A stretch of DNA of 64,000 bases from positions 1-64,000 of the forward strand of contig JBIJDH010000019.1 in assembly GCA_044344255.1 (NCBI GenBank), given 5' to 3'. A model generated the notes under the pieces. It ran no database searches. It was not told where the DNA came from and was given only the letters and a program-made list of their open reading frames with translations. Source of the DNA: Myxococcota bacterium. Lineage in GTDB: Bacteria > Myxococcota_A > UBA796 > UBA2385. Within the stretch, counting starts at the first letter, position 1. Every line of letters begins with the position of its first letter. The translations under genes and the position numbers were made by a program. Positions 1-62,337 of this stretch are shown in pieces.

Positions 1-1106
1 GTTTTATGCTGCGGGTCTACGAGGTTCCTCCCTTCTCGAGCACCAGGGGTGTCGGGTCGTCCTTTCGTTCGACCTTCCTGGCCTTCGCTCCTCCTTCAGA
101 GACATCGGTTCGTTCGGCTCACTCCTCGCGGAGCTCACCCAAGAACCACTCTCGAATCCTACGGTCCGTCCCTGCCCTGTCGTGTGTCTTCCTCCCCCGT
201 CGGTGAGGGTGACGCTCAACAGCGCTCTTTCGGACTGCCTCTCTTGGGGTTTTCCAAAGATCCCCTCCATCGACTCCCTGATCTGCGTCCCTCCGGGCTC
301 GTGACTCCTCGCGAAGTCCGACCGCCTGGGTGAATGGGATACCAGCCCATCCACGCGATCCGCTCTTGCCGTTTCTCACGGCTTCAGCGGCTTCATCCGC
401 ATCTCAGTCGCAGGTTTGTTGCGCCCTGCTGCCGATCCTGGGGTTCAGCTCGTTCGGGGGGTTTACGCTTCCGCGCTCGCCTCCACCCGAGCTGTCTACC
501 CTTCGAAGCTTTCCTCCTCGCTCTCCAGCCGTACCGCGTCACCGCGGCCCTCTTGCCCTCTCGCCGTTCGTGTCCATCCCGCCTCTCAGCATCGATGTCC
601 ACGCGACCTCAGGGCCTTGCTCCGGAGAGGAGTCGAGACCACCCGGTGGATGTTGCCATCCCCCGCGAGTCCCTTGCTCCCTTGGGTTTCTCTCTTCGCG
701 CTGGCTCTCTCCCCCGCGCTCCTCTCAGATCGCCGCTCGCGCGGCGCCCTCCGCGGTCCTGGGCATCGCTGCCCGCTCCCGCCCCGACCGGATCGACCTT
801 CACCCTGTGGGGGTGGGGCCGATGAGGGGGTCCTGATCGTCCTGCTGGGTTCTTCAGTCGGCTCGATTCACTCCGACGACTCGGGGTGGTTCGCTCCGCC
901 TGCCGGCTCCGTGTCCTCCCCCGCTTCGAAGCTCAACTGGTTGCGCCAGAGCTGTGCTTCGGGTTGGAGAGAGGGCCGTCACCGGTCCTGCTCGAAGATT
1001 CGGTTCACGTCAAAGTTCTTGTCTGTCGGCCTCGCGGCTCTCAGACCCGCAGAGCATTTCCTCTCTGCGGTGCCTCTCGGTGTGCCACCGGTCATCCCGG
1101 CGCCGC
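1..1106 (-). ncRNA. Putative large structured ncRNA, copy 1 (3' end beyond the window start)
   Basis: Downstream of the sigma-54 promoter at 1117-1133. Many GNRA-capped stems on the minus strand. No credible ORF is conserved between copies. Start site is inferred from -12 spacing. Confidence 0.7.
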
Positions 1107-1116
1107 AGACACTCTA

Positions 1117-1133
1117 TGCAGGAAGCGTGCCAA
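1117..1133 (-). promoter_or_regulatory. Sigma-54 (RpoN) -24/-12 promoter
   Basis: Minus strand TTGGCACGCTTCCTGCA matches TGGCACG-N4-TTGC with correct GG/GC spacing. Identical in copy 2. Confidence 0.8.
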
Positions 1134-1173
1134 GCCCATGCCCACGCGCCGACGCCGAGGATGGCCAAGGGGA

Positions 1174-1211
1174 CCGGGGATCGGGGTTACCCCTTCCCAC
1201 AATGTGGGAAG
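1174..1211. promoter_or_regulatory. Palindromic upstream site, candidate enhancer-binding-protein UAS
   Basis: CTTCCCACA-A-TGTGGGAAG (1193-1211) plus adjacent GGGGTTACCCC. Conserved in copy 2 while the intervening spacer has diverged. Confidence 0.65.
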
Positions 1212-1215
1212 CGGA

Positions 1216-2193
1216 CTACTCAATCCGGCCGCCTGCTCGGTGCACCAGCACCGCGTCCTCGAGGGCGAGGCCGATCCGGAGCGCGCGCTGGCGGGCCTCC
1301 GCGCGCTCGCGCTCGTCCGGAGAGACGCGGGCCACCATCAACAGGCCCATGGCGCGGAGCCGGACGTGGCCCCCATCGCCGGCGGTCCGCACCGCCTCTT
1401 GAGCGAAGTGGAGCGCCTCCGAGGCCAGGCCTCGCCGGTGAAGCGAGTAAGCGAGGCCGTTGGCCCGGCGAGAGGCGGCGAAAGGGTGGGTGTCGGCGCG
1501 GGCGGGGAGGCCCCGGAAGAGGCGCTCCGCTCCGTCCAGATCTCCGGCGCGGAAGGCGGTCCAAGCGAGCTGACCGACATAGCGGGCGCGGAGGCAGTCG
1601 GCGTCGTCTCCCTCCAGCTGGGCGAGACAGTCCGGCACCCGGGCGAGGGAGGGAGGGGCCACGCCCGGCGCCGCCTGGCTCTCGAGGAGGGCGAGGCCGA
1701 GCGCCCCCTCGACGCGGGCGCGCAGGTCAGGGCTGTCGGCGCTGCGGGCGCGCTCCAGCGAGCGACGGGCGGACTCCGGGTCGCGGCGGCGCAGGGCGAG
1801 GTGGGCGCCGGCCAGGGCCAGCCAGACCCGCCCCGCCCGGCTCTCTCGCTGCGGGGGCCGGTCCCAGAGGGCGACGAGGTCGGCGGCGAGCGGGACCGGC
1901 AGGTCTTCGAAGCGGGAGTGGTAGCTGCCCATGAAGCGCAGCCGCTCGGTGATCTCCGCGGGGAGCCCAAAGGTCCGCAGCAGGCGCTCTCCCCAGACGC
2001 CGCCGGGGCTCGGGCCGCGGCCGCGGAGGCGGCGGAGGCCCCGCTCGGCGCTGGTGACGTCCTGGTCGACCCCACCCTCCACGAGGCGCTGGGCCAGGGT
2101 CGCGAGGCTGCCGTGCTCGGCCACCAGGGCGTCGAGCAGGGTGCCCCAGTCCGGCTGTCCGGAATTCTGTCCGTGCGGGTCCGCGGGGCTCAT
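1216..2193 (-). CDS. Hypothetical helical-repeat (TPR-like) protein with possible N-terminal HTH-like segment
   Basis: Open frame with GC-rich codon usage, ATG at 2193, Ala/Leu/Arg-rich TPR-like helices. No family recognised. Confidence 0.6.
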   Translation of the reverse strand: MSPADPHGQNSGQPDWGTLLDALVAEHGSLATLAQRLVEGGVDQDVTSAERGLRRLRGRGPSPGGVWGERLLRTFGLPAEITERLRFMGSYHSRFEDLPVPLAADLVALWDRPPQRESRAGRVWLALAGAHLALRRRDPESARRSLERARSADSPDLRARVEGALGLALLESQAAPGVAPPSLARVPDCLAQLEGDDADCLRARYVGQLAWTAFRAGDLDGAERLFRGLPARADTHPFAASRRANGLAYSLHRRGLASEALHFAQEAVRTAGDGGHVRLRAMGLLMVARVSPDERERAEARQRALRIGLALEDAVLVHRAGGRIE

Positions 2194-2276
2194 CGATAGG
2201 TCCACCGTGCGCAGGGAGCCTCCACCGTAGCTTGGGGGCCCCAACCGCGTCAGCACCCCACCCGACGGAGCCCCCC

Positions 2277-3302
2277 ATGACCGCCCACGCCCCCCGCACC
2301 ATCCTCATCGGTGACATCCACGGCTGCTACGCCGAGCTCGAGGCCCTCCTCACCGCCGTCGAGCTCCAGCCCGAGGACCACCTCGTGAGCGTCGGCGACC
2401 TTGTCGACCGCGGCCCCGAGCCCACCGCCGTGGTCCGCCTGTTCCAGACCCGCCCGAACAGCACCGCGCTCATGGGAAACCACGAGCGCAAGCATGTCCG
2501 CGGGGTCCTGTCCTACAGCCAGCAGATCACCCGCCTGCAGATGGGGGAGGCCTACGCCGACGCCGTCGCCTGGATGGCCACGCTGCCCTACCACTACGAA
2601 GATGAGCAGGTGCGCGTGGTCCACTGGGGCCTCTACCCGGGGGTCCCGCTCGCGGAGGTGCCCGAGGAGGTGCGCTCCGGGACGACCTCGGGCGAGGGCC
2701 GCCTGCGCGAGCGTTACGGCGACCGCCCCTGGCACGAGGCCTACACCGACGACAAGCCCGTCGTCTTCGGCCACGCCGTCATGGGCGCGCAGCCACTGGT
2801 GCGGGACGGGAAGGTCTACGGCCTCGACACCGGCGCCTGCCATGGCCTCCGCCTCACCGCGCTGGTGCTGCCCGAGGGGCGGATCGTCTCGGTCCCCGCG
2901 CGGGAGGACCACTGGGCGCGCGCGCGGCGGGCCTGGGAGGAGCCCGTGCTCCGCCAGCAGCGCTGGGGTGCGATGACCTGGGAGCAGCTCCAGAAGCGGA
3001 TCGCCAAGGCCCGGGACCCGGAGCACAGCGGCGACTACCTCGACCGCGTCGCGCGTTGGGCGACGGCGCTGCGCGGACAGATCCCAGAGCTCGCCGCCCA
3101 GCTCGACGCCGAGAACGCCCGGCTGATCGAGGCCGTGGGCGAGGAGGGTTACGGGCGGGCCGCCGCAGAGCACGCGGCGGGGAGCCACCTCATCCGCCTG
3201 CGGGCTGGACGGATCGGTCGAGAGAACCTCGGCTGTGCCGGACCGGCCGAGCTCGTGGCCCTGGCCGCGAAGCTCGGGAGCGCCCTGCCGACCGAGCCCT
3301 GA
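2277..3302 (+). CDS. Calcineurin-like metallophosphoesterase (ApaH/PrpE-like) with C-terminal extension
   Basis: Motifs GDIHG, GDLVDRG, GNHE, VFGH and LDTGACHG. Confidence 0.9.
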   Translation: MTAHAPRTILIGDIHGCYAELEALLTAVELQPEDHLVSVGDLVDRGPEPTAVVRLFQTRPNSTALMGNHERKHVRGVLSYSQQITRLQMGEAYADAVAWMATLPYHYEDEQVRVVHWGLYPGVPLAEVPEEVRSGTTSGEGRLRERYGDRPWHEAYTDDKPVVFGHAVMGAQPLVRDGKVYGLDTGACHGLRLTALVLPEGRIVSVPAREDHWARARRAWEEPVLRQQRWGAMTWEQLQKRIAKARDPEHSGDYLDRVARWATALRGQIPELAAQLDAENARLIEAVGEEGYGRAAAEHAAGSHLIRLRAGRIGRENLGCAGPAELVALAAKLGSALPTEP

Positions 3303-3321
3303 GCTGCCGACCGAGCCCTGA
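3285..3321. repeat. 18-bp direct duplication spanning the phosphoesterase stop codon
   Basis: CTGCCGACCGAGCCCTGA at 3285-3302 and 3304-3321. Confidence 0.85.
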
Positions 3322-3329
3322 CCCAACAG

Positions 3330-3358
3330 AAAAAACCCTCCAACTTACGTTGGAGGGT
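3330..3358 (-). terminator. Intrinsic terminator ending ncRNA copy 2
   Basis: Minus strand ACCCTCCAAC-GTAA-GTTGGAGGGT, a perfect 10-bp stem, followed by TTTTT. Confidence 0.9.
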
Positions 3359-4703
3359 CTCTTGGCGTCGGGTGGCGGTGGGTTCCCCTGCAGAGGTGTG
3401 CGCGGGGACTCGGGGAGACGGCGGGCGCGGCTCAGGTTGCCCTGCGCGTTGTCGCTTGTCTTGCCTCTCGTGGGGTCAGCGGGGTCTTCAAGGTCCTGGG
3501 TTCACTCAGCCTGCGTTGCGGCGCAGCCTGGGTCTTCCCACTCGTTCCGGGTCGCTGGTCGTTGGTCTTTCCAGCCGTCCTCCTTGACCTTGCAGGGTTT
3601 TACGCTGCGGGTCTACGAGGTTCCTCCCTTCTCGAGCACCAGGGGTGTCGGGTCGTCCTTTCGTTCGACCTTCCTGGCCTTCGCTCCTCCTTCAGAGACA
3701 TCGGTTCGTTCGGCTTACTCCTCGCGGAGCTCACCCAAGAACCACTCTCGAATCCTACGGTCCGTCCCTGCCCTGTCGTGTGTCTACCTCCCCCGTCGGT
3801 GAGGGTGACGCTCAACAGCGCTCTTTCGGACTGCCTCTCTTGGGGTTTTCCAAAGATCCCCTCCATCGACTCCCTGATCTGCGTCCCTCCGGGCTCGTGA
3901 CTCCTTCCGAAGTCCGACCGCCTGGGTGAATGGGATACCAGCCCATCCACGCGATCCGCTCTTGCCGTTTCTCACGGCTTCAGCGGCTTCATCCGCATCT
4001 CAGTCGCAGGTTTGTTGCGCCCTGCTGCCGATCCTGGGGTTCAGCTCGTTCGGGGGGTTTACGCTTCCGCGCTCGCCTCCACCCGAGCTGTCTACCCTTC
4101 GAAGCGTTCCTCCTCGCTCTCCAGCCGTACCGCGTCACCGCGGCCCTCTTGCCCTCTCGCCGTTCGTGTCCATCCCGCCTCTCAGCATCGATGACCACGC
4201 GACCTCAGGGCCTTGCTCCAGAGAGGAGTCGCGACCACCCGGTGGATGTTGCCATCCCCCGCGAGTCCCTTGCTCCCTTGGGTTTCGACCTTCTTGCTGG
4301 CTCTCTCCCCTGCGCTCCTCTCAGATCGCCGCTCGCGCGGCGCCCTCCGCGGTCCTGGGCATCGCTGCCCGCTCCCGCCCCGACCGGATCGACCTTCACC
4401 CTGGGGGGGTGGGGCCGATGAGGGGGTCCTGATCGTCCTGCTGGGGTTCTTCAGGTGGTTCGTGTCACTCCGACGACTCGGGGTGGTTCGCTCCGCCTGC
4501 CGGCTCCGTGTCCTCCCCCGCTTCGAAGCTCAACTGGTTGCGCCAGAGCTGTGCTTCGGGTTGGAGAGAGGGCCGTCGCTGGTCCTGCTCGAAGATTCGG
4601 TTCACGTCAAAGTACATGTCTGTCGGCCTCGCGGCTCTCAGACCCGCAGAGCATTTCCTCTCCGCGGTGCCTCTCGGTGTGCCACCGGTCATCCCGGCGC
4701 CGC
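3330..4703 (-). ncRNA. Putative large structured ncRNA (~1.37 kb), copy 2, complete
   Basis: Bounded by the sigma-54 promoter (4714-4730) and the terminator (3330-3358). GNRA hairpins at 3433-3444, 3718-3729, 3899-3914, 4130-4143, 4244-4257, 4327-4342, 4357-4370 and 4626-4635. Structure-preserving changes relative to copy 1. Confidence 0.75.
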
Positions 4704-4713
4704 AGACACTCTA

Positions 4714-4730
4714 TGCAGGAAGCGTGCCAA
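4714..4730 (-). promoter_or_regulatory. Sigma-54 (RpoN) -24/-12 promoter
   Basis: Minus strand TTGGCACGCTTCCTGCA. Confidence 0.8.
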
Positions 4731-4770
4731 GCACCCGCCCACGAACGAAGGCCGAGGTTGGGCGAGCCGG

Positions 4771-4808
4771 CCGGGGATCGGGGTTGCCCCTTCCCACAAT
4801 GTGGGAAG
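4771..4808. promoter_or_regulatory. Palindromic upstream site, candidate bEBP UAS
   Basis: CTTCCCACAATGTGGGAAG at 4790-4808, same distance from the -24 box as in copy 1. Confidence 0.65.
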
Positions 4809-4855
4809 TCGTTTGCCCAGACCGCCCGCCCGAGGTCCTCACCGGTCTTCAGACA

Positions 4856-5578
4856 TCACAGGTCCGCAGACAGGGGCCAGCTCAGCAGCTCGCCCTGGGT
4901 GGCCGAGGCGGTGCCGTCCTCCCCCTCGCCCGAGGTGTCCGTAGCGAAGACATACACGTTGCCGTGGGTGGTGGCGTCCGCCCGCACGGTCGCCTCGATC
5001 CGCAGCGCGATGGTGTCCCAGTCGGCGGGGTCGAATTCGGGGTCCGACCAGGTGCCCCCGACCTCGGCGAGCGGGATCTCCGCGTTCACCGAGCCCTCCC
5101 CGGGGGCGTAGAGGATGAGCTCCCCGTCAAAGGCCTCGTTCAGCACCCCGTCCGCCGTGGCCAGCGTGAAGGCGCCGCTCAGCCGCAGGTAGTCGGGGCA
5201 CTCGTCCACCGAGCCGGAGGTGTCCTCGGCGATCGCCGGCTCCATGCCGCCGTCGCCGCCGTCGCCGGTGTTGACCTCCTGGTCCACGTAGACGACGCTC
5301 TCGCCGAGCGTGACCCCGATTTGGACGGTGGCGGCAGCGCCGTCGGCGACCCAGGCGCCCTCCGCGGTGTAGGCGGCGGACAGGCCCGCGGACAGGTCAG
5401 CCGCGCTCGCGGCGAGCGAGGGGACGACCTCGTCAAAGGCGACCGCAGACTCGACCTGGGTGCAGAGGGCCCAAGCGTTCTCGTCACCCGTGCCCTTGGA
5501 GCCGGTGTCGTCCTCCGAGCCGCTACAGGCCGCGAGCGGGACGAGGGAGAGGACGGCGAGAAGGGAGAGAGAGCGCAT
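4856..5578 (-). CDS. Hypothetical acidic lipoprotein
   Basis: RBS CAGGAGG, ATG at 5578, signal peptide with lipobox LAAC. Confidence 0.75.
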   Translation of the reverse strand: MRSLSLLAVLSLVPLAACSGSEDDTGSKGTGDENAWALCTQVESAVAFDEVVPSLAASAADLSAGLSAAYTAEGAWVADGAAATVQIGVTLGESVVYVDQEVNTGDGGDGGMEPAIAEDTSGSVDECPDYLRLSGAFTLATADGVLNEAFDGELILYAPGEGSVNAEIPLAEVGGTWSDPEFDPADWDTIALRIEATVRADATTHGNVYVFATDTSGEGEDGTASATQGELLSWPLSADL

Positions 5579-5604
5579 GGTGTTGACCTCCTGCTCTTCC
5601 CTTA

Positions 5605-5621
5605 AGCACCTATCGTGCCAG
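5605..5621 (-). promoter_or_regulatory. Sigma-54 promoter of the lipoprotein gene
   Basis: Minus strand CTGGCACGATAGGTGCT with GG/GC at -24/-12 spacing, just upstream of the RBS. Confidence 0.65.
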
Positions 5622-8008: not shown

Positions 8009-8119
8009 GGGGGCGCTCCTCCCTCCCGTCCCGACGAACATCGCCGAGAGGCCGAGCGATAACCCGGCTGCCCATCGCCGCCGCCCTCTGATACGATGCC
8101 CGACCTGTCCGGAGATCCG

Positions 8120-10399
8120 ATGCGCGCGCTCATCCTGCTCCCCCTCTCCCTCATGGCCCTCGCCTGCAAGACCGACTCGGGGGACAAGTCCAACCCGAGC
8201 TCGACCTCCACCGACGGGAGCGGAGAGTCCGACGCCGACACCGACACCGACGCCGACACCGACGCCGACACCGACGCCGACACCGACGCCGACACCGACG
8301 CCGACCCCTGCGTGGAGGAGGTCGGCGGCGCGCTGCCCGACGGCGTGGAGTGGGTGAGCTACGACGGCGTCTCTCACGAGACCTTCAGCTTCGCCGACGG
8401 CGTCTTCCCCACGAATTGGGAGGGGTACTACGGGACCTACAACCTCAACACCGAGGAGGTCTATGCCGGCAACAACGTCAAGCTGACCCGCCCGGGCTCC
8501 GTGGTCGCCGTCCAGGTGCGCTGGGCGAACCTCAAGAGTGACCCCTCCGCCGCCACGATCTCGCTCTACCCGGACTTCAGCAGCAACGCCTACTCCTTCG
8601 ACTGGCAGAACCCCATCGTGTCGGCCACCCGCTGCCTGACCAGCGCCGACGAGGGCGCCTGGACCGAGGTGGTCTTCCCGAGCCCGGTCCACCTCGACCA
8701 GCCGGGCTACGTCTATGCGGCCTATCACCGCGAAGAGGGGGCCGACGCGCCCGAGGTCCTCATGGAGAACCTCTACAGCGAGGCGGAGCCCTACTGGTCG
8801 GGCGTCCGCTGGCCGAACATCGACACGCGGGTGTACTACGGCGGCCTCCAGAGCCCCTTTTACACCTGGCAGATCCGCCTCGGCGTCGTCTACGACGAGT
8901 CTGAGGCCATCCCGGCCGAGGACAAGCCCTTTCAGCTCGACGCCTCCCTGTCCGTGTCGAGCCGAGTGGCCTGGGGGGACTACGACAATGACGGCGACGA
9001 CGACGTCATGACCTCTGGCCCCAGCCTCTATCGGAACAACGGCGACGGCACCTTCACCGACGTCACCGCCTCCTCCTTCAGCGCCGGGGTCGGCACAGGC
9101 GGCGGCGTCTGGGGAGACTACGACAACGACGGCTGCCTCGACTACTTCGGCCAGGGCGGCGGAGCCACGGCGGGGGAGCTCCTGCTCCACAACGACTGTG
9201 ACGGCACCTTCACCGACCTCACCCTCGAGAGCGGCATCAACGACTTCCAGTCCGAGATCGACTGCGACGAGGACGGCCTGGGCGAATATTCCCCCACTGA
9301 GGGCGCCGCCTGGTTCGACCTCGACAACGACGGGCTGCTCGACCTCTACCTCGCCAACTACGAGTGCTCGTCGGGGTCCGGAGCCTACACCCTGTTCTAC
9401 GACGACAAGGTCTGGAAGAACAACGGGGACGGCACCTTCACCGACTGGACGCTGGCCTCGGGTATCCCCCAGTCCAACAAGGCCGGCCGCGGCGTCAACA
9501 CCGCCGACTTCGACCAGGACGGAGACACCGACGTCTTCGTGAGCAACTACCGCCTGACCGAGAACTTCCTGCTCGAGAACAACGGCGACGGCACGATGAC
9601 CGACATCGGGCGGTCCAGCGGCACCCGCGGGATCAACGACAGCGGGGCCTACGGCCACACCATCGGCTCGACCTGGGGTGACATCGACAACGACGGCGAC
9701 TTTGACCTCGTGTCGGCGAACCTCGCCCACCCCTTCTACTACTCCTTCAGCGACCGCACGATGGTGCTGATCAACGACGGGGACGGGGTCTTCACCGACG
9801 AGGCGGAGAGCCGCGGCATCGTCTATCGAGAGACCGACTCGAACCCCACCCTCTTCGACGGCGACAACGACGGCGACCTCGACCTCTTCATCACCGCCGT
9901 CTATCCCTCTCGCGACAGCTCCTATTACGAGAACGACGGGACGGGCGTCTTCACGCTCCGGAATTACGAGAGCGGCCTCGTCGTCCAGAACGGCTGGGGG
10001 GCCGCCGCGGCCGACCCCGATCAGGACGGCGACCAGGACATGCTCGCCTATGGCCTGTACCGGAACCACCAGGCCAACGGGAATCATTGGCTGGAGGTGC
10101 GCGCGGTGGGCGGCGCCGGCTCGGGCGGCCTGTCGAACCGCAGCGCCATTGGGGCGATCGTCGAGGTCACCGCCGCCGGGGCCGCCCAGCTTCGACAGGT
10201 TCAGGGCGGGACGGGGACGAGCAACCAGGACAGCTTCGCGCAGCACTTCGGCCTCGGCGCCGAGGCGTTGGTGGACAGCCTGACCGTCTCCTTCCCCGGC
10301 GGGGCCACGGTCGAGCTCACCGACGTGGCGGCCGACCAGCTCATCTGGGTCTTCGAGGACGGCAGCTCAGCCACCGGCTGGGCGCCACCGGCCCTGTGA
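8120..10399 (+). CDS. CRTAC1/ASPIC-UnbV family FG-GAP repeat lipoprotein
   Basis: Lipobox LAC, repeated WGDYDNDG and NNGDGTFTD motifs, C-terminal NRSAIGAIVEV...QHFGLG. Confidence 0.88.
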   Translation: MRALILLPLSLMALACKTDSGDKSNPSSTSTDGSGESDADTDTDADTDADTDADTDADTDADPCVEEVGGALPDGVEWVSYDGVSHETFSFADGVFPTNWEGYYGTYNLNTEEVYAGNNVKLTRPGSVVAVQVRWANLKSDPSAATISLYPDFSSNAYSFDWQNPIVSATRCLTSADEGAWTEVVFPSPVHLDQPGYVYAAYHREEGADAPEVLMENLYSEAEPYWSGVRWPNIDTRVYYGGLQSPFYTWQIRLGVVYDESEAIPAEDKPFQLDASLSVSSRVAWGDYDNDGDDDVMTSGPSLYRNNGDGTFTDVTASSFSAGVGTGGGVWGDYDNDGCLDYFGQGGGATAGELLLHNDCDGTFTDLTLESGINDFQSEIDCDEDGLGEYSPTEGAAWFDLDNDGLLDLYLANYECSSGSGAYTLFYDDKVWKNNGDGTFTDWTLASGIPQSNKAGRGVNTADFDQDGDTDVFVSNYRLTENFLLENNGDGTMTDIGRSSGTRGINDSGAYGHTIGSTWGDIDNDGDFDLVSANLAHPFYYSFSDRTMVLINDGDGVFTDEAESRGIVYRETDSNPTLFDGDNDGDLDLFITAVYPSRDSSYYENDGTGVFTLRNYESGLVVQNGWGAAAADPDQDGDQDMLAYGLYRNHQANGNHWLEVRAVGGAGSGGLSNRSAIGAIVEVTAAGAAQLRQVQGGTGTSNQDSFAQHFGLGAEALVDSLTVSFPGGATVELTDVAADQLIWVFEDGSSATGWAPPAL
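8231..8305 (+). repeat. In-frame (GACGCCGACACC)n repeat encoding an Asp-Ala/Asp-Thr linker
   Basis: Encodes DADTDTDADTDADTDADTDADTDAD. Confidence 0.9.
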
Positions 10400-36436: not shown

Positions 36437-36512
36437 TGGAGCGGGAGACGGGACTCGAACCCGCGACATCCAGCATGGCAAGCTGGTGCTCTACCAACTG
36501 AGCTACTCCCGC
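36437..36512 (-). tRNA. tRNA-Gly (GCC)
   Basis: GCGGGAGTAGCTCAGTTGGTAGAGCACCAGCTTGCCATGCTGGATGTCGCGGGTTCGAGTCCCGTCTCCCGCTCCA: cloverleaf, anticodon GCC, encoded CCA. Confidence 0.97.
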
Positions 36513-41272: not shown

Positions 41273-43564
41273 ATGCGTCCGCTGTTCATCGGCCTCCTCA
41301 TCCCCCTCGGCGCCCTGCTCCCCACCGCAGAGGCCGGCGACTCCTGGTCCACCCCGCACACCGGGATGCGGCTCCTCCACCGCACCGCCAGCGGCCCGGT
41401 GGAGCTCTGGGCGCTCGAGGTCGACCTCTGCGCCCGCGGCATCTCGCTGCGCGCCACCGCTGAAGATGAACGGAAACAGAAGACCTCGAGCTTCGCCGGC
41501 GAGGTCGACGCGCAGGCCGCGGTCAACGGGGGCTTCTTCTCCTATGAAGACTATTACCCGGGCGGCCTCGCCATCGGCGACGGCGTGGCCTGGAACGAGG
41601 ACACCACCACCCACTCCTCCCTGATCTTCGGCCGCGACAACGCCCAGCTCCGCGCCGAGAGTGAAGACCTCACCAGCTACGAGAACTGGATGCACGAGGC
41701 CGTGTCCGGCTACCCGCGCATCGTCGTGGACGGTGATGTCCCGAGCTCCTTCTCCCGCGGCGACTGTGACGATCGCCACCCCCGCACCGCCGCCGGCCTC
41801 TCCCGCGACCGACAGACGCTCTACCTCGTCACCCTCGACGGCCGCTCCGGCGACTCCATCGGCGCCACCTGTGAGGAGCTCGGCGAGGTCCTGGCCGGCC
41901 TCGGCGCGGAGTGGGCGGTCAACCTCGACGGCGGCGGCTCCACCACGCTCTGGATCGACAGCAAGGGGGTGGTGAACAACCCGTCGGACGGCTCCGAGCG
42001 CACCGTCGGCAACCACCTCGGGATCTGGGCGACCGGCACGGGGGCCCCCGAGTCGTGCGACTTTTATATGGGCGAGCTCGAGACCGGGGCCAACATCCTC
42101 GAGGCCGAAGGCGCCACCGACGTCAACGGCGACGGGCTCCCCGACGCCTGCGCGCGGGGGCCGGCGGGCCTCGAGTGCCACCTCGGCCAGGCGACCGGCG
42201 GCTGGGGTGACACCTGGACCCTCGAGTCGCTCTCTGACGACCACGGCTGGGACAAGGCGAAGTTCTACAGCACCCTCCGGATGGGCGACCTCAACGGCGA
42301 CGGCCGCACCGACGTCTGCGCGCGCGGCTCGGCCAACGTCTACTGCTGGCTGGCCGAGGAGGCCGGCTTCAGCGACACCCTCTCCCTCGCCGCCGCCACC
42401 GACGCCGCTGGCTACGACCAGATCGACTATTACAGCACGCTCCGCCTCTTCGACTGGACCGGCGACGGCAAGGCCGACCTCTGTTATCGCAGCCCCGAGG
42501 GCATGCGCTGCCACGCCTCGAACGGGGCCGGCTTCGACGCCGCCATCGAGGGCCCCGCGTGGTCCGACACGAGCGGCTGGTCCCAGCCGTACTACTACGG
42601 CACCATCCGCACCGGGGACGTGAACGGTGACGGGCGCGGCGACCTCTGCGCCCGCTCCTCGGTGGGCGTCACCTGCACCCTCTCCGACGGCGCCTCCTTC
42701 CCCACCGTCGTCACCGGGCCCGCCTGGTCGAACGACCTCGGCTGGAAGGACGTCCGCTCCTGGTCCACCCTCCGCCTGACCGACATCGACGGTGACTTCA
42801 AGGCCGACCTCCTCGGGCGCGACGCGAGCGGCCTCTGGTTCGCCCGCTCCACCGGGGAGGCCTTCGAGGAGCCCGTGCTGGTCCGCGGGCTCTCCGACGA
42901 GACGGGCTGGTGGGACCATTCCAACTACGAGACGCTGCGCACCGGCGACCTCGACGCCGACGGAGACCGCGACCTCTGCCTCCGCGCCGACGCCGGCTAC
43001 GTCTGCTACCTCTGGAACGGCGCCGTCTTCGACGAGAAGTGGCTGGGCCCCGTGCACGCCGACAGCTCGGGCTGGGACGACCACCGCTACTACTCCACCT
43101 TCCGGATGGCCGACCTCAACGGCGACGGCATCTCCGAGCTCTGCGACCGCAGCGCGTCCAATTTTAACTGTTACACCTGGGACGGCTCCACGAGCATCTC
43201 CTACGGCACGCCGATCGCTTGGTCCAACGCCGAGGGTTGGGACGGAGACGGCTACTACTCCACCATCCGGCTGGCCTCGGCGCCGCCGCCGCGGCCCGCC
43301 CTGGAGCCCACCGACACCGGCGACCCCACCGACCCGGCCGACACCGGCGCCTCGCCCGACACCCCGGCGGGGGACTCCGGCCAGTCCGAGGGTGGGGGGG
43401 CCCCCGCCGAAGGGCGAGGCCAGGTCTACTCCGGCGAGTCCAAGGGCTGCGGCTGTGGTGGGAAGGCGATGCTCTGGCCGCTGCTGCTCGGCCCGGCGGC
43501 CCTCCGCCGACGCCGCCACCGGCAGACGCCCCCGGACGGCCCCACACCGCCGCCGCTGGGATAG
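41273..43564 (+). CDS. Phosphodiester glycosidase (NAGPA-like) domain + FG-GAP repeats + MYXO-CTERM-like tail
   Basis: AAVNGGFF, RHPRTAAG, NLDGGGST, repeated DxNGDGRxDxCAR, C-terminal GCGCGG..hydrophobic..RRRR. Confidence 0.82.
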   Translation: MRPLFIGLLIPLGALLPTAEAGDSWSTPHTGMRLLHRTASGPVELWALEVDLCARGISLRATAEDERKQKTSSFAGEVDAQAAVNGGFFSYEDYYPGGLAIGDGVAWNEDTTTHSSLIFGRDNAQLRAESEDLTSYENWMHEAVSGYPRIVVDGDVPSSFSRGDCDDRHPRTAAGLSRDRQTLYLVTLDGRSGDSIGATCEELGEVLAGLGAEWAVNLDGGGSTTLWIDSKGVVNNPSDGSERTVGNHLGIWATGTGAPESCDFYMGELETGANILEAEGATDVNGDGLPDACARGPAGLECHLGQATGGWGDTWTLESLSDDHGWDKAKFYSTLRMGDLNGDGRTDVCARGSANVYCWLAEEAGFSDTLSLAAATDAAGYDQIDYYSTLRLFDWTGDGKADLCYRSPEGMRCHASNGAGFDAAIEGPAWSDTSGWSQPYYYGTIRTGDVNGDGRGDLCARSSVGVTCTLSDGASFPTVVTGPAWSNDLGWKDVRSWSTLRLTDIDGDFKADLLGRDASGLWFARSTGEAFEEPVLVRGLSDETGWWDHSNYETLRTGDLDADGDRDLCLRADAGYVCYLWNGAVFDEKWLGPVHADSSGWDDHRYYSTFRMADLNGDGISELCDRSASNFNCYTWDGSTSISYGTPIAWSNAEGWDGDGYYSTIRLASAPPPRPALEPTDTGDPTDPADTGASPDTPAGDSGQSEGGGAPAEGRGQVYSGESKGCGCGGKAMLWPLLLGPAALRRRRHRQTPPDGPTPPPLG

Positions 43565-52456: not shown

Positions 52457-53341
52457 ATGTCGAGCTCCGCGCTGCCCTCCACCCCTCCCGAGCTGTCCCC
52501 GCCCGCGCACCCGCGGGTGGACGATCACTTCATTCAGGAGGGCGCGCGTGTCGAGGTTCTACGAGGGATCTTGCTGATGGCGCCGCCTGCCCAGGAGCCC
52601 CACGCCACCGCCCACCTCTCGCTGGCCTACCTGCTCGGCGCCTATGTGGCCTCGGGCTGGAAGGCCGCCGTAGACATGCTCACCCGGACGAGCGAGGCCT
52701 CGAACTTCGCGCCCGACGCGAGCGTCTACCCCGAGGCCCGGGACCCGGTCACGAAGGGGCGCCAGCTCGAGGAGCTCGCCTTCGAGATCGCAGACTCCCA
52801 GCCCCTCGACTCCGCGGGCGAGAAGGCCCGTGAGCTCACCCGCCGCGGCGTTCGGCGGGTCTTCTGCGTCGTGGTCAAGCACAGCCGGGTGCTCGAGTGG
52901 TCGGTCGACACCGACGGCTGGAGCCCCCTGCCCGCGAACGCGCGCATCGAAGACCGCTGCTTCGTCCGACCGCTCCCCGCCCGCGCCTTGGTGCACGCCT
53001 CCGACTGCGACGAGGCCGTGGTGGCCGCGCTCCGCGCCCGCCGCACCCCCGCGCTGGTCGCGCTCCAGGCCGAGGCGCACGCCGAGGGCCGAGTGGAGGG
53101 CCGAGTGGAGGGCCGAGTGGAGGGCCGAGTGGAGGGCCGAGTGGAGGGCCGAGCCGACGGCCTCGCCAAGGCGCTCCACACGGTGCTCCAGGCCCGCGGC
53201 CTCCGGCCCAGCCCCGCCGAGGCCACCCGCATCGACACGGCCGACGCGGCCACCTTGGAGGGTTGGCTCGTGGCCGCCCTCTCCGCCTCGGCGGTGGCCT
53301 CCCTGTGGGGGGCTGGGCCCGAGCGCGGCGGCGACGCCTGA
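52457..53341 (+). CDS. Uma2-family PD-(D/E)XK putative endonuclease with C-terminal EGRV repeats
   Basis: EVLRG..MAPP..PH, APDASV, ELAFEIA, K. Tail (EGRV)5 followed by a short helical domain. Confidence 0.8.
   Translation: MSSSALPSTPPELSPPAHPRVDDHFIQEGARVEVLRGILLMAPPAQEPHATAHLSLAYLLGAYVASGWKAAVDMLTRTSEASNFAPDASVYPEARDPVTKGRQLEELAFEIADSQPLDSAGEKARELTRRGVRRVFCVVVKHSRVLEWSVDTDGWSPLPANARIEDRCFVRPLPARALVHASDCDEAVVAALRARRTPALVALQAEAHAEGRVEGRVEGRVEGRVEGRVEGRADGLAKALHTVLQARGLRPSPAEATRIDTADAATLEGWLVAALSASAVASLWGAGPERGGDA
53084..53155 (+). repeat. 12-bp in-frame tandem repeat GAGGGCCGAGTG (5 perfect + 1 variant)
   Basis: Read directly from the sequence. Confidence 0.92.
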
Positions 53342-54127: not shown

Positions 54128-56143
54128 ATGGTCCGCCCCTCGTCCTTGTCCTCGTCCTCGTCCTCGTCCTCGTCCTTGTCCTCGACCTCGCTGTCCGCTC
54201 GCCGCTCGCCCCGATCGGCCACTCCGCACGCCCGGCTCCTCGCGGCGCTCCTGAGCTTCGGAGCCCTCGGAGCCGGCGGTTGTAACGACTACAACCTCGC
54301 CGGAGAGAAAGAGGCCCCCGGCCGCGGCGAAGGAGACACCGGCACCCCCGGCGAGGACTGGACCGAGCAGGACGTGCCCCCCGACTGCAAGGCCACCCAG
54401 TTCCCCGCAGAGGAGGTGGGCGTCGGCGACTCCTGCCCCACGCCCCCCGAGGGCACCTTCAACCCGATCGTCGAGTGGGACTACGGCGACGGCTGGGGCT
54501 GCCTCTCGCAGCCGATCGTCGCCGACATGGACGCCGACGGCAAGCCCGAGGTCGTGGTCAACATCCTCAAGAGCTTCTTCAACCCCCCGGGCGTGCTCAC
54601 GGTGCTCCACGGCGACGGCTCCGGCCTCATCTGGGAGGACACCGGCGCCATCATGGCCTACGGCTCGCCCCCCGCCGTGGCAGACCTCGACGACGACGGC
54701 TACCCCGAGATCGTCATCGTGCGCGAGTACGCGAGCGCCCTCTTCGGCGCCGGCGACTACACCGCCGCCGCCTACGACAACGAGGGCAACGAGCTCTGGG
54801 AGTCCGAGCACTTCATCGACCGCGAATTCGACTGGGCCAGCGCGCCGGTCATCCGCGACATGAACCACGACGGTGACCCCGAGATCGTGATCGGCCGCGT
54901 GATCTTCAACCACGACGGCACAGTGCGCGGCGTCGGCCAGTACGGCCGCGGCTCCTATGGGCTCTATGAGCTCGGAGACTTCGTCGTCGGTGAGTCGGCC
55001 GTCCCCGCCGTGACCGACCTCAACCTCGACGGCGAGGACGAGGTGGTGGTCGGCAACGCCATCTACGACATCGACGGCAACGCCACCTGGTTCGATGACG
55101 CCGAAGATGACGGCATGATCAGCATCGCCAACCTCGACGCCGACCCCGAGGGCGAGTTCGTCGCCATCACCGGCAACACGATCCGCGCGGTTGACACCGA
55201 CGGCACCATCCTCTGGGGCCCCACCGTGGTGGACGGCGCCAACATCCTCGCCACTGCGGGCATCGCCGACCTCGACCTCGACGGCCTGCCCGAGCTCGTC
55301 ACCGCCGGCGGGAATCGGCTCGTCGTGTTCAACCACGACGGCACGGTGCTGTGGTCCACCCACGTCACCGACACCTCCGGGGCCACCGGGGCCTCCTTCT
55401 TCGACTTCGAGGGGGACGGCGTGCCGGAGGTGGTCTACATCGACGAGGTCGAGATGGCCGTCTATGACGGCCCCACCGGCGCGCTCAAGTTCTTCAACGA
55501 CGAGCACGCCTCGAACACCATGTTCGACTACCCCACCGTGGCCGACGTCGACGCCGACGACCACGCCGAGATCATCGTCTGCCACAACAGCTTCTCGAGC
55601 GCGCTCAGCGTCTACGGCGACGTCAACGACTCCTGGATGCCGGCCCGAAAGGTCTGGAACCAGCACGCCTACGACATCACCAACATCAACGACGACCTCA
55701 GCGTCCCGCTTGACCCCACCCCCGGCTTCGCCGACACCAACACCTGGCACTCCGCCATCGCCACCACCGGTGAGTCGCTGGTCAACGACGTCAGCGCCGA
55801 GATCCTGGAGATCTGCGAGGACGACTGCGACCAGGGCTACGTCTGGGTGACCGCGCGGGCGCTCAACTACGCCGCCGAGGACCTCGAGGCTGGCCTACAC
55901 GTCGCCCTCTACGGGCGCTCCGGCGGGGTCGACAGCTACCTCGCCGACACCGTGCTCGAGGCGCCGATCCGGTCCGGCTGGAGCTCGGAGGGCCTCGTGT
56001 TCCACGTGGAAGCAGACCTCCTCGACGGCGCAGACTCCCTCTGGTTCGCCGCCGATGACGACGGGACGGGCACCGGCGCCCTCCTCGAGTGTGCGGAGAC
56101 CAACAACGGCTTCCAGTGGAACGGCCCCTTCTGCGCAGGATGA
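54128..56143 (+). CDS. FG-GAP/VCBS repeat lipoprotein
   Basis: DxDxDGxPEI repeats, FDFEGDG..EVVY.DE, WNQHAY.ITNINDD. Paralogue-like to 60388-62337. Confidence 0.85.
   Translation: MVRPSSLSSSSSSSSSLSSTSLSARRSPRSATPHARLLAALLSFGALGAGGCNDYNLAGEKEAPGRGEGDTGTPGEDWTEQDVPPDCKATQFPAEEVGVGDSCPTPPEGTFNPIVEWDYGDGWGCLSQPIVADMDADGKPEVVVNILKSFFNPPGVLTVLHGDGSGLIWEDTGAIMAYGSPPAVADLDDDGYPEIVIVREYASALFGAGDYTAAAYDNEGNELWESEHFIDREFDWASAPVIRDMNHDGDPEIVIGRVIFNHDGTVRGVGQYGRGSYGLYELGDFVVGESAVPAVTDLNLDGEDEVVVGNAIYDIDGNATWFDDAEDDGMISIANLDADPEGEFVAITGNTIRAVDTDGTILWGPTVVDGANILATAGIADLDLDGLPELVTAGGNRLVVFNHDGTVLWSTHVTDTSGATGASFFDFEGDGVPEVVYIDEVEMAVYDGPTGALKFFNDEHASNTMFDYPTVADVDADDHAEIIVCHNSFSSALSVYGDVNDSWMPARKVWNQHAYDITNINDDLSVPLDPTPGFADTNTWHSAIATTGESLVNDVSAEILEICEDDCDQGYVWVTARALNYAAEDLEAGLHVALYGRSGGVDSYLADTVLEAPIRSGWSSEGLVFHVEADLLDGADSLWFAADDDGTGTGALLECAETNNGFQWNGPFCAG
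54137..54190 (+). repeat. Hexamer microsatellite (TCCTCG)n, ~9 units, encoding poly-Ser at the N-terminus
   Basis: Read directly from the sequence. Confidence 0.85.
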
Positions 56144-60387: not shown

Positions 60388-62337
60388 ATGCGTCGCCTCT
60401 CGCACCTGCTCTTGCTCTGCCCGCTCAGCGTCGCCTGCTCCGAGTACGACATCCTGGGGGAGAAGGAAGACAATCCGCCCCAACGGAATGACACGGGTGT
60501 GCCCGAAGAGGAAGACTCCGAGGTCGTGATCGTCGAGACGGCCGAGCCCTTGCCCGAGTGCCAGGGCCGCATCTTTGACGAGCACAGCGTGCCGATGATC
60601 GAGGCCTGCGCCGAGTCCTCCGAGCCCGTCGGCACCTTCACGCCGACGGTGGAGTGGGAGAAGGCCACCTGGACCGTCCAGCCCGGGAGCTCTCAGGTGA
60701 TGATGATGCCCGCGGTGGGCTCCTTCAACGACGACGACGGCGACGGTGACGCCGATGAAGACGACATCCCCGACGTCGTGGTGGTCACCTACGGGAGCTC
60801 TGACGTCATCCGGGTGGTGAGCGGAGACGGGTCGGGCACCGAGATCCTCAACATCGCCGGGACCGGCGTCCAAGGCCAGGGCGGCGTCGCCCTCGGCGAC
60901 ATCGACGGCGACGGCTGGCAAGACATCGTCATCCCCACCACCAGCCGCACGATCGCGGTCTACGACCACCTCGGCAACCGGATGTGGGTGAGCGCCAGCC
61001 TCGGCGGCGCCCTCTACGGTACGTCCGACAACCCGGCGATCGCCGACATGGACGGGGACGGAAGCCCGGAGATCATCTGCGGCGCTGCCATCCTCTCGAG
61101 CACGGGCGCCGTGCTCGGCAAGGGCACGGCGGGGATCGGCGGCGTGAACGGAGCCAACGTGGGCACCGCGTCCTTCGCCTACGACATCGACGACGACGGC
61201 GTACAAGAGGTGGTGGTCGGCAACGCCCTCTACGACATCACGGGCGCCACCATCTGGAACAACGGCCTCGTAGACGGCTACCCCGCGGTGGGCAACTTCG
61301 ACTCCGACACCATGGGCGAGATCGTGGTCACGAGCGGCGGGAAGATCCGCCTGCAAGACGACAACGGCACCAAGCTCTGTGAGACCGCGATCCCCGGCGC
61401 CGGCTCCGCCTACTACGGAGGCCCCCCCACCGTCGCCGACTTCGACGGTGACGGCGAGGCCGAGTTCGCCGCCGCCGCGGGCAGCCGCTACTCGGTCTTC
61501 GAGAAGGACTGCTCCGTCAAGTGGCAGGCCACGACGCAAGACGCGAGCAGCGGCAACACGGGCTCCTCTGTCTTCGACTTTGAGGGAGACGGCGTCGCCG
61601 AGGCCGTCTACGCCGACGAGACGAAGCTGTGGGTCTTCGCCGGGCCGGACGGCGCGGTCAAGCTCTCCGACCCCCACCACAGCAACGCCACCTGGCTCGA
61701 GTACCCGGCCATCGCCGACGTAGACGGCGACAACCAGGCCGAGATCATCGTCGCCAACACCGCCTACATGATGTCCTACTCGGGCTTCACCGTCTTCGGA
61801 GACGCCAGCAGCTCCTGGCGGCCCGGGCGAAAGATCTGGAACCAGCACGCCTACTCGATCACCAACGTCAACGATGACGGCAGCATCCCCGCCGTCGCCG
61901 ACCGCAACCTCGAGTACTACAACAACTTCCGCTCCGGCGCCCTCAACGTTGGCTCAGACCTCCCCGCACGGCCCGATCTCTACGTCACCATCGAGGACGT
62001 CTGCATTGACGAATGCGTCCTCGACCGCCTGCTCGTCTGGGTGTCGGTCACCAACCAGGGCTACACGGACATCACCGAGGACGTCCCGCTCACGCTGACG
62101 GGCACGCAGCAAGATGGCACCGCGGTCGAGCTCTACAGCACGATCATCACCGATGTCATCCCCGCCGGTCAGGCCCTGCAGGCCTACGAGATCCTGGTCG
62201 AGAGCGGCGCCTCGGCGATCGTCAGCCTGTCGGCCTCGATCGACGGCGGAAACAGCGGCGTCGGCGCGATCCTCGAGGAGTGCGACGAGCTCAACAACGA
62301 CAGCGTCTGGGCGGGAGAGGCCTGCCTCGCGCCCTGA
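60388..62337 (+). CDS. FG-GAP/VCBS repeat lipoprotein
   Basis: Lipobox VAC, GGPPTVADFDGDG, SSVFDFEGDG..EAVYADE, WNQHAY.ITNVNDDG. Confidence 0.88.
   Translation: MRRLSHLLLLCPLSVACSEYDILGEKEDNPPQRNDTGVPEEEDSEVVIVETAEPLPECQGRIFDEHSVPMIEACAESSEPVGTFTPTVEWEKATWTVQPGSSQVMMMPAVGSFNDDDGDGDADEDDIPDVVVVTYGSSDVIRVVSGDGSGTEILNIAGTGVQGQGGVALGDIDGDGWQDIVIPTTSRTIAVYDHLGNRMWVSASLGGALYGTSDNPAIADMDGDGSPEIICGAAILSSTGAVLGKGTAGIGGVNGANVGTASFAYDIDDDGVQEVVVGNALYDITGATIWNNGLVDGYPAVGNFDSDTMGEIVVTSGGKIRLQDDNGTKLCETAIPGAGSAYYGGPPTVADFDGDGEAEFAAAAGSRYSVFEKDCSVKWQATTQDASSGNTGSSVFDFEGDGVAEAVYADETKLWVFAGPDGAVKLSDPHHSNATWLEYPAIADVDGDNQAEIIVANTAYMMSYSGFTVFGDASSSWRPGRKIWNQHAYSITNVNDDGSIPAVADRNLEYYNNFRSGALNVGSDLPARPDLYVTIEDVCIDECVLDRLLVWVSVTNQGYTDITEDVPLTLTGTQQDGTAVELYSTIITDVIPAGQALQAYEILVESGASAIVSLSASIDGGNSGVGAILEECDELNNDSVWAGEACLAP

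What the first reader, a model, noticed from the sequence alone, without database searches (positions are those of the whole stretch)
303..1070. Differences between the two copies preserve RNA structure and identify the strand
Seen: at 309-312 vs 3905-3908 two substitutions turn loop GCGA into GGAA on the same GACUUC/GGAGUC stem, and both loops are GNRA. Seen: at 1066 vs 4663 the stem CCGCAGAG/CUCUGCGG changes an A-U pair to a G-U wobble, which is tolerated only on the minus strand. Changes at 510 and 624 fall in predicted loops. An indel near 850 and stop-codon differences break the overlapping ORFs. Inference: selection acts on RNA fold, not on protein. Some differences (e.g. 636, 691-699) I could not place in a structure.
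Basis: seen in the sequence. Interest (0 to 1): 0.75.

Follow-up and report, generated by a model that had tools for sequence, protein, structure and literature searches.

The report
Giant folded RNA of uncultured myxobacteria
The two look-alike stretches are duplicate genes for a very long (about 1,370-letter), intricately folded RNA that makes no protein, matches no catalogued RNA family, and turns up as a discrete transcript in many environmental samples; what it does is unknown.

Summary
The quoted differences are real, and the conclusion (selection on RNA fold, minus strand, no protein) is right, but two copies alone do not prove it. A plain fold of the minus strand gives no signal (18/29 substitutions harmless, p 0.18) and the plus strand looks better (21/29, p 0.005). 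The family settles it. The repeat is the gene for a ~1.37-kb non-coding RNA with a sigma-54 promoter, an rRNA-type boxA-like motif, paired 5'/3' ends and a terminator; the genome has three copies. Among 114 homologs (about 53% identical; complete genomic members 1.2-2.5 kb), about 17 helices, a pseudoknot, two T-loop-like hairpins and six purine-rich 3x3 loops recur, and no reading frame is kept. None of the 31 copy differences hits the 212 family-paired positions (4.8 expected). It was found in 57 of 110 genomes of the order, in other classes of the phylum, in 18 RNA runs, and as 120 RNA-sized contigs. No Rfam match, no paper found. Best guess at function: an abundant self-folding, possibly self-assembling RNA particle, like ROOL or GOLLD but longer and chromosomal. 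That step is inferred.

The parts
3330..4704 (-). Copy 2: complete gene for the ~1,375-nt structured non-coding RNA (predicted +1 at about 4704, within 2 nt)
   Evidence: RNA-library contigs cover 3375-4693
1..1107 (-). Copy 1: 5' 1,107 nt of the RNA gene; the rest lies at the end of contig C42 (127-nt overlap)
4714..4729 (-). Sigma-54 -24/-12 promoter motif of copy 2 (TGGCACG-N4-CTGCA)
   Evidence: motif consensus recalled; genome encodes sigma-54
1117..1132 (-). Sigma-54 -24/-12 promoter motif of copy 1
   Evidence: identical to copy 2 from -24 to +1
4791..4807 (.). Upstream palindrome TTCCCAC-N3-GTGGGAA of copy 2; candidate activator (enhancer-binding protein) site, left edge of the duplicated unit
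   Evidence: a related TGGGAA-N6-TTCCCA box is seen by eye at the same distance in many homologs; function inferred
1194..1210 (.). Upstream palindrome of copy 1
4604..4612 (-). Near-invariant CTTTGACGT motif closing the 5' hairpin; resembles rRNA boxA (copy 1: 1007-1015)
3858..4276 (-). Most conserved core, helices P2-P13, copy 2 (copy 1: about 262-680)
4006..4025 (-). Hairpin P9: G.A/A.G closing pair covaries, loop UGCAACA (T-loop-like)
   Evidence: T-loop label recalled
3956..3986 (-). Hairpin P11: 3x3 purine loop plus T-loop-like loop UGAGAAA/GGAGGAA with U.A to G.G covariation
3563..3940 (-). Long-range pseudoknot: loop of P12 (3937-3940) with loop of P18 (3563-3566)
   Evidence: 8 co-changes vs 1.9 expected at the variable pair
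3330..3362 (-). Terminator-like hairpin with U6 tail ending copy 2; right edge of the duplicated unit
   Evidence: not called by the simple scanner
303..318 (-).
1047..1070 (-). Stem with A-U (copy 1), G-U (copy 2) or G-C (copy 3) at one pair
1216..2256 (-). Neighbour gene upstream of copy 1, weak TPR-like hit; not part of the unit
2232..3302 (+). Neighbour gene, metallophosphoesterase, convergent with copy 2; not part of the unit
4856..5620 (-). Neighbour gene of no Pfam family with its own sigma-54 motif at 5605-5620; may read through into copy 2

Best explanation
The repeat is a duplicated, stand-alone gene for a large non-coding RNA that acts in trans through its fold. SHOWN: a ~1.37-kb minus-strand unit bounded by a sigma-54 promoter motif and a terminator-like hairpin; a conserved nested fold with a pseudoknot and variable expansion segments; no conserved reading frame; presence in RNA libraries; copy differences that avoid the family-paired positions. 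INFERRED: it is switched on by a sigma-54 activator, is transcribed with rRNA-type Nus antitermination, and accumulates to high level; copies are kept alike by gene conversion and filtered by selection on the fold. MECHANISM I commit to (about 0.4 on its own): the RNA folds into a compact particle locked by T-loops, GNRA loops and repeated A.A/G.G purine loops, and self-assembles or serves as a scaffold, as ROOL and GOLLD do.
For: Covariation: 37 of the top 50 and 62 of the top 100 column pairs are at least 75% canonical, against a 4.8% background. Tree-aware co-changes such as 21 vs 5.1, 19 vs 4.3 and 17 vs 1.6. Core alignment: 27 of 36 pairs with two-sided changes; 93.5% paired vs 77.5% shuffled and 33-44% slid. 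Non-canonical covariation A.A to G.G (10 vs 0.7 and 5 vs 0.2 co-changes) and G.A to A.G (12 vs 1.3). 104 columns at least 97% conserved. Promoter plus box in 28 of 37 non-redundant genomic loci. 20 of 24 listed runs hold the stretch, 18 on record as RNA, 12 studies. In 3 of 4 laid runs the long pieces lie only on the element. All 120 metagenome-collection hits are 1.0-2.7-kb contigs; 79 of the 80 read lack the promoter motif; ends sit a median 42 nt before the box (62 of 80) and 27 nt after the last conserved motif (65 of 80). Tandem copies in two genomes. No conserved neighbour gene, transposase, reverse transcriptase or tRNA.
Against: No direct evidence for multimers: no covarying self-complementary neighbours in loops were found, and the pseudoknot may be intramolecular. 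Single-sequence 200-nt folding z-scores are weak on both strands. 7 of 31 differences break a pair in the copy-2 model. Copy 3 breaks 71 of the 132 changed pairs of that model, so the model is unreliable in variable regions. Several tested pairs (5' pair, P17 purine pair, P11a, P15) score no better than a clade-driven control pair. Contigs carry no strand or level; one run's contig extends to 5540. The scanner found no terminator. 53 of 110 order genomes had no match.
Confidence: 0.62

Rival explanations
1. Same RNA gene, but it works as a scaffold in a ribonucleoprotein with specific protein partners (OLE-like), or docks a tRNA or ribosome through its two T-loop-like hairpins.
For: Many invariant unpaired purines in junctions; two adjacent T-loop-like loops; paired T-loops recognise the tRNA elbow in RNase P and T-box RNAs (recalled).
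Against: No conserved neighbouring protein among 77 flanking ORFs. Ro60/TROVE is absent from this genome and shows no association: 10 of 57 RNA-positive vs 11 of 53 RNA-negative genomes. A partner encoded elsewhere was not otherwise tested.
Confidence: 0.2
2. A new large ribozyme with a catalytic core in P8-P13.
For: 104 columns at least 97% conserved, against 10 reported for ROOL (PMC5737381, passage); pseudoknot and conserved multiway junction.
Against: No match to group I/II intron, RNase P or other ribozyme models; it is not inserted in genes; a normal RNase P RNA exists elsewhere in the genome; contigs span the full length with no recurring internal end.
Confidence: 0.08
3. A selfish or non-autonomous mobile element whose fold serves its own spread.
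For: 1-6 copies per genome, patchy presence, changing neighbours, tandem copies.
Against: No terminal inverted repeats or target-site duplication at the two window copies; no transposase, integrase or reverse transcriptase among 77 flanking ORFs; the promoter lies outside the transcript, so an RNA-copied insertion would lose it; same flanking genes within some clades; no match in phage or plasmid collections and one contig in four viral scans.
Confidence: 0.07
4. A recent neutral duplication, or a protein-coding or single-stranded-DNA element; the pattern of differences is chance.
For: Two-copy tests on unconstrained folds are not decisive; long ORFs exist on the plus strand.
Against: Family covariation; G-U, GNRA and UUCG strand bias; anchor spacings in all three frame classes and no period-3 signal; the promoter spacer is 66% identical while the RNA is 97-98%.
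Confidence: 0.03

Closest known systems
GOLLD and ROOL RNAs (PMC12286853, PMC5737381, PMC12990946; passages seen)
   Same: Large, multi-junction, covarying non-coding RNA of unknown function with pseudoknot, variable 5' domain and expansion segments; abundant transcript.
   Different: No Rfam match; 1.2-2.5 kb against about 580-830 nt; no tRNA in 34 loci scanned and no phage genes among the flanking ORFs; sigma-54 promoter; multimer formation not shown.
OLE RNA
   Same: Chromosomal, highly conserved, ornate RNA; purine-purine pairs.
   Different: No Rfam match; more than twice as long; stand-alone gene without a conserved gene cluster; different phylum.
rRNA operons (transcription architecture; PMC10250234, passages seen)
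   Same: Hairpin followed by a boxA-like motif near the 5' end, a second similar motif internally in part of the family, paired 5'/3' ends, several near-identical copies.
   Different: No match to SSU/LSU models; sigma-54 promoter, which 4 of 4 rRNA leaders examined lack; absent from many genomes.
Group II introns and RNase P RNA
   Same: Size class, multiway junctions, T-loop and GNRA modules; short look-alike words.
   Different: No model match; own promoter and terminator; no intron context or maturase; RNase P RNA present elsewhere.

Membership tests
GOLLD / ROOL | Match to the family covariance model | tested here: not met
   Window 1-5200 at E up to 5, 20 homologs at E up to 2 and 14 loci at E up to 1: no such hit
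GOLLD / ROOL | Often in prophages or beside tRNA genes | tested here: not met
   0 tRNAs in 34 loci; no phage families among 77 flanking ORFs except one RdRP on a viral contig; no phage-collection match
GOLLD / ROOL | Forms RNA-only multimeric cages | not testable with these tools
   Needs mass photometry or cryo-EM; no covarying symmetric kissing loop found
OLE RNA | Match to the covariance model and conserved gene neighbourhood | tested here: not met
Group II intron | Domain V/VI model match | tested here: not met
   hairpin P6 resembles domain V in words only, its flanks are not complementary
Group II intron | Interrupts a gene or carries a reverse transcriptase | tested here: not met
   Intergenic with own promoter and terminator; no RT among flanks
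RNase P RNA | Model match; sole copy of the activity | tested here: not met
   No hit; a genuine RNase P RNA is on contig C74
Bacterial Y RNA | Co-occurs with Ro60 (TROVE) | tested here: not met
   Absent from this genome; 10 of 57 vs 11 of 53
rRNA or rRNA remnant | SSU/LSU model match | tested here: not met
IS / MITE | Terminal inverted repeats, target-site duplication, transposase | tested here: not met
Sigma-54-dependent gene | -24/-12 motif at fixed spacing before the 5' end | tested here: met
   3 of 3 copies; 28 of 37 genomic loci; promoter activity itself not tested
boxA-antiterminated transcript | boxA sequence bound by NusB/S10 | tested here: inconclusive
   CGNTCTTTGACG vs CGGTCTTTGAAA in 3 of 4 rRNA leaders of the order and TGCTCTTTAACA in E. 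coli; NusB present; but the motif can pair inside a hairpin and this genome's copies read ACTTTGACG

The most novel reading that the evidence does not exclude
An undescribed class of bacterial non-coding RNA, the size of 16S rRNA and longer than GOLLD, made like an rRNA (antiterminated, multi-copy, ends paired) but under sigma-54 control, which builds a large RNA-only particle or a new ribozyme from a repeated purine-loop module across uncultured Myxococcota and their relatives.
Probability: 0.45. Interest if true: 0.95.

Novelty: categorically new. Interest (0 to 1): 0.86.

Why it matters
Large ornate bacterial RNAs are rare and have repeatedly proved to be ribozymes, ribonucleoprotein machines or RNA-only cages. 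[quoted passage not shown] This family is two to four times that length, keeps about a hundred near-invariant positions, and appears as a discrete contig in many RNA-type assemblies, yet has no Rfam model and was not met in 10 literature searches. It is new as a family; as a broad type (large RNA of unknown function) it has precedents. It gives a ready cryo-EM and probing target with a deep alignment, a recurring A.A/G.G loop module to define, and a sigma-54-controlled handle on the physiology of an uncultured lineage.

Tried and rejected
Two-copy test on unconstrained folds: does not fix the strand. Local folding z-scores: weak on both strands. Rfam: nothing relevant (only ASdes E 3.1 and sR36 E 0.6). 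Phage and plasmid BLAST: none. Viral scans: one contig, probably a chimera, then none. Y RNA/Ro60 idea: rejected. RNase P replacement: rejected. Group II domain V resemblance: rejected. Symmetric kissing loops: none found; YYGARG count not strand-biased, 5.9 vs 6.9 per kb. The mosaic of copy-1 and copy-2 alleles in run X1 is not used as proof of gene conversion, because assembly can mix alleles. Lack of cover on flanking genes in contig-only runs is no proof that they are silent. One search returned the same genomes, so it is not independent. A model search in other phyla could not be run, so presence outside this phylum is open. The first promoter pattern had the wrong spacing and was corrected. 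Three near-duplicate sequences were dropped before alignment (117 to 114). Literature searches that found no description; subscription journals and preprint supplements are not covered, and no supplements were read. Earlier scan notes by place or sequence: nothing.

Full report
1. Observation. The window holds two copies of one unit, offset by 3596-3597 bases. Copy 1 runs off the window start and continues on contig C42. A third copy, 73% identical, lies on C43. Copies 1 and 2 differ at 31 places, 27 of them in the window. The GNRA swap (310/311), the A-U to G-U change (1066), the indel (849) and the ORF-breaking stop (598) are as described. 624 is paired (C-G or U-G), not looped. 510 and 636 are junction bases. 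691-699 lie in and beside the helix that closes the variable 5' domain.

2. Is the pattern more than chance? From two copies alone, no. With unconstrained folds, 18 of 29 substitutions are harmless on the minus strand (expected 15.8, p 0.18) and 21 of 29 on the plus strand (expected 14.8, p 0.0045). With helices fixed from family covariation the count is 24 of 29 (expected 15.7, p about 1e-4), and 10 of the 11 isolated substitutions (expected 5.1). I added the 5' helices after one search had shown two sites as broken; without them the count is 22 of 29 (p 0.0015). The cleanest test: 0 of 31 differences fall on the 212 constrained paired positions (expected 4.8, p 0.005). Seven differences break a predicted pair; none of these pairs is among the family-constrained ones. 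The differences fall into 18 clusters, so they are not all independent.

3. Anatomy. On the minus strand the unit has a palindrome (4791-4807), a sigma-54 -24/-12 motif (4714-4729; consensus recalled), a predicted +1 near 4704, about 1,375 nt of RNA and a hairpin with six U (3330-3362; seen, not called). Identity between copies is 40% outside the unit, 95% in the palindrome block, 66% in the spacer, 100% from -24 to +1 and 97-98% in the RNA. An old duplication kept alike by gene conversion fits this best (inference). The 5' and 3' ends pair: 16 of 24 genomic members beat shuffles at p below 0.05. A near-invariant CTTTGACGT closes the first hairpin. rRNA leaders in 3 of 4 genomes of the order carry CGGTCTTTGAAA after a hairpin, and E. 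coli has TGCTCTTTAACA there, so a boxA role is plausible. The motif can also pair, so this is open. The genome encodes sigma-54 and NusB.

4. Family. BLAST found it in 19 of 60 relatives. A strict pattern found 16 of 400 phylum genomes, all in the same order, and 20 named contigs whose titles include Myxococcota and Deltaproteobacteria UBA796 and UBA2385. A covariance model of the core found 57 of 110 order genomes, two of them weak, and 28 of 150 phylum genomes, including other orders and classes with up to six copies. Several distant members show sigma-70-like promoters and TCTTTGAAACT boxes, read by eye. Promoter plus box was found in 28 of 37 non-redundant genomic loci; four of the other nine start inside the RNA at a contig end. 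Complete genomic members are 1.2-2.5 kb. Two genomes have head-to-tail copies. Several assemblies break inside the gene, so presence is undercounted. Flanking genes vary and are ordinary; none of 77 is a transposase, integrase or reverse transcriptase, and 34 loci hold no tRNA.

5. Structure. In 114 sequences (mean identity 53%), 37 of the top 50 and 62 of the top 100 covarying pairs are canonical, against a background of 4.8%. They form about 17 nested helices. On a tree, most of 29 tested pairs change together many times, for example 21 vs 5.1, 19 vs 4.3 and 17 vs 1.6 expected; four pairs are no better than a clade-driven control. On an independent 38-sequence core alignment, 27 of 36 pairs show two-sided changes and 93.5% of cells pair, against 77.5% shuffled and 33-44% slid. 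Six helices carry a 3x3 loop closed by A.A or G.G; two of these pairs switch A.A to G.G repeatedly. One hairpin is closed by G.A or A.G, two loops are T-loop-like (label recalled), and the P12 loop pairs with the P18 loop. 104 columns are at least 97% conserved, some because of the search pattern. Strand: G-U 994 vs A-C 335 (0.83 expected from composition), GNRA hairpins 868 vs 71, UUCG 445 vs 36. Coding: spacings between most anchors fall in all three frame classes and there is no period-3 signal.

6. Expression. 20 of 24 listed runs hold the near-identical stretch, 18 on record as RNA, from 12 studies, including runs of 3-7 million letters. Of four laid, three have their long pieces only within 3375-4693; the fourth has a contig reaching 5540, which may be read-through from the upstream gene or DNA. 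In the smallest run all 21 listed differences equal the copy-1 allele. Of the 80 read, 79 lack the promoter motif; 62 start a median 42 nt before the box, where +1 lies 53 nt or more before it; 65 end a median 27 nt after the last conserved motif. DNA contigs broken at a repeat should keep the shared promoter, so these look like transcripts (inference). Contigs give no strand or level.

7. Mechanism. Shown: a conserved, folded, non-coding unit present in RNA libraries. Inferred: activator-dependent sigma-54 transcription, Nus antitermination, high abundance. Most likely function: a compact RNA particle that self-assembles or scaffolds, by analogy with ROOL and GOLLD (PMC12286853 and PMC12990946, passages seen). 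Nothing here shows multimers. Rivals are a protein- or tRNA-binding scaffold, a ribozyme and a selfish element; the Ro60 and RNase P variants were tested and failed.

8. Comparison and novelty. No relevant Rfam match for the window or for 34 homolog loci. Ten literature searches met no description. I saw passages of five papers and listings or abstract starts of the rest; no supplements were read, and the library lacks most subscription papers. An earlier scan note on a ~485-nt RNA of another uncultured Myxococcota order could be a short relative; I did not test this.

9. Verdict. A real and apparently undescribed class of very large bacterial non-coding RNA. Interest 0.86.

Noticed in passing
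L053:1-3811: A viral-collection contig joins a family RNA (6-1543) to two ORFs, one a viral RdRP (PF00998); probably a chimeric RNA assembly.
   Followed up: partly
window 4856-5620: Lipoprotein-like gene of no Pfam family with its own sigma-54 motif; one RNA-run contig spans from it into copy 2.
   Followed up: partly
L210-L220: Distant subfamilies in other orders and classes share the core fold; some are shorter and some have sigma-70-like promoters with TCTTTGAAACT boxes.
   Followed up: partly
L274:4907-8717 and L275:911-4632: Head-to-tail tandem copies of the RNA gene in two genomes.
   Followed up: partly
L276:1300-3200 (minus strand): A strongly diverged, possibly decaying member in a closed genome that still keeps promoter, box and terminator.
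   Followed up: no
L034, L039, L042, L043 flanks: In one clade the gene sits between rho-rpmE and a dehydrogenase E1 gene, divergent from rho.
   Followed up: no
upstream of promoters: A TGGGAA-N6-TTCCCA box and an IHF-like word (label recalled) recur at a fixed distance in many homologs; the activator is unidentified.
   Followed up: no
window 8096-10399, 42097-43276, 54519-55754, 60876-61936: Genes with FG-GAP-like tandem repeats dominate the other repeats of the window; a 12-nt coding tandem repeat lies at 53072-53167.
   Followed up: no
window 36437-36512: tRNA-Gly(GCC), minus strand, far from the RNA genes.
   Followed up: no
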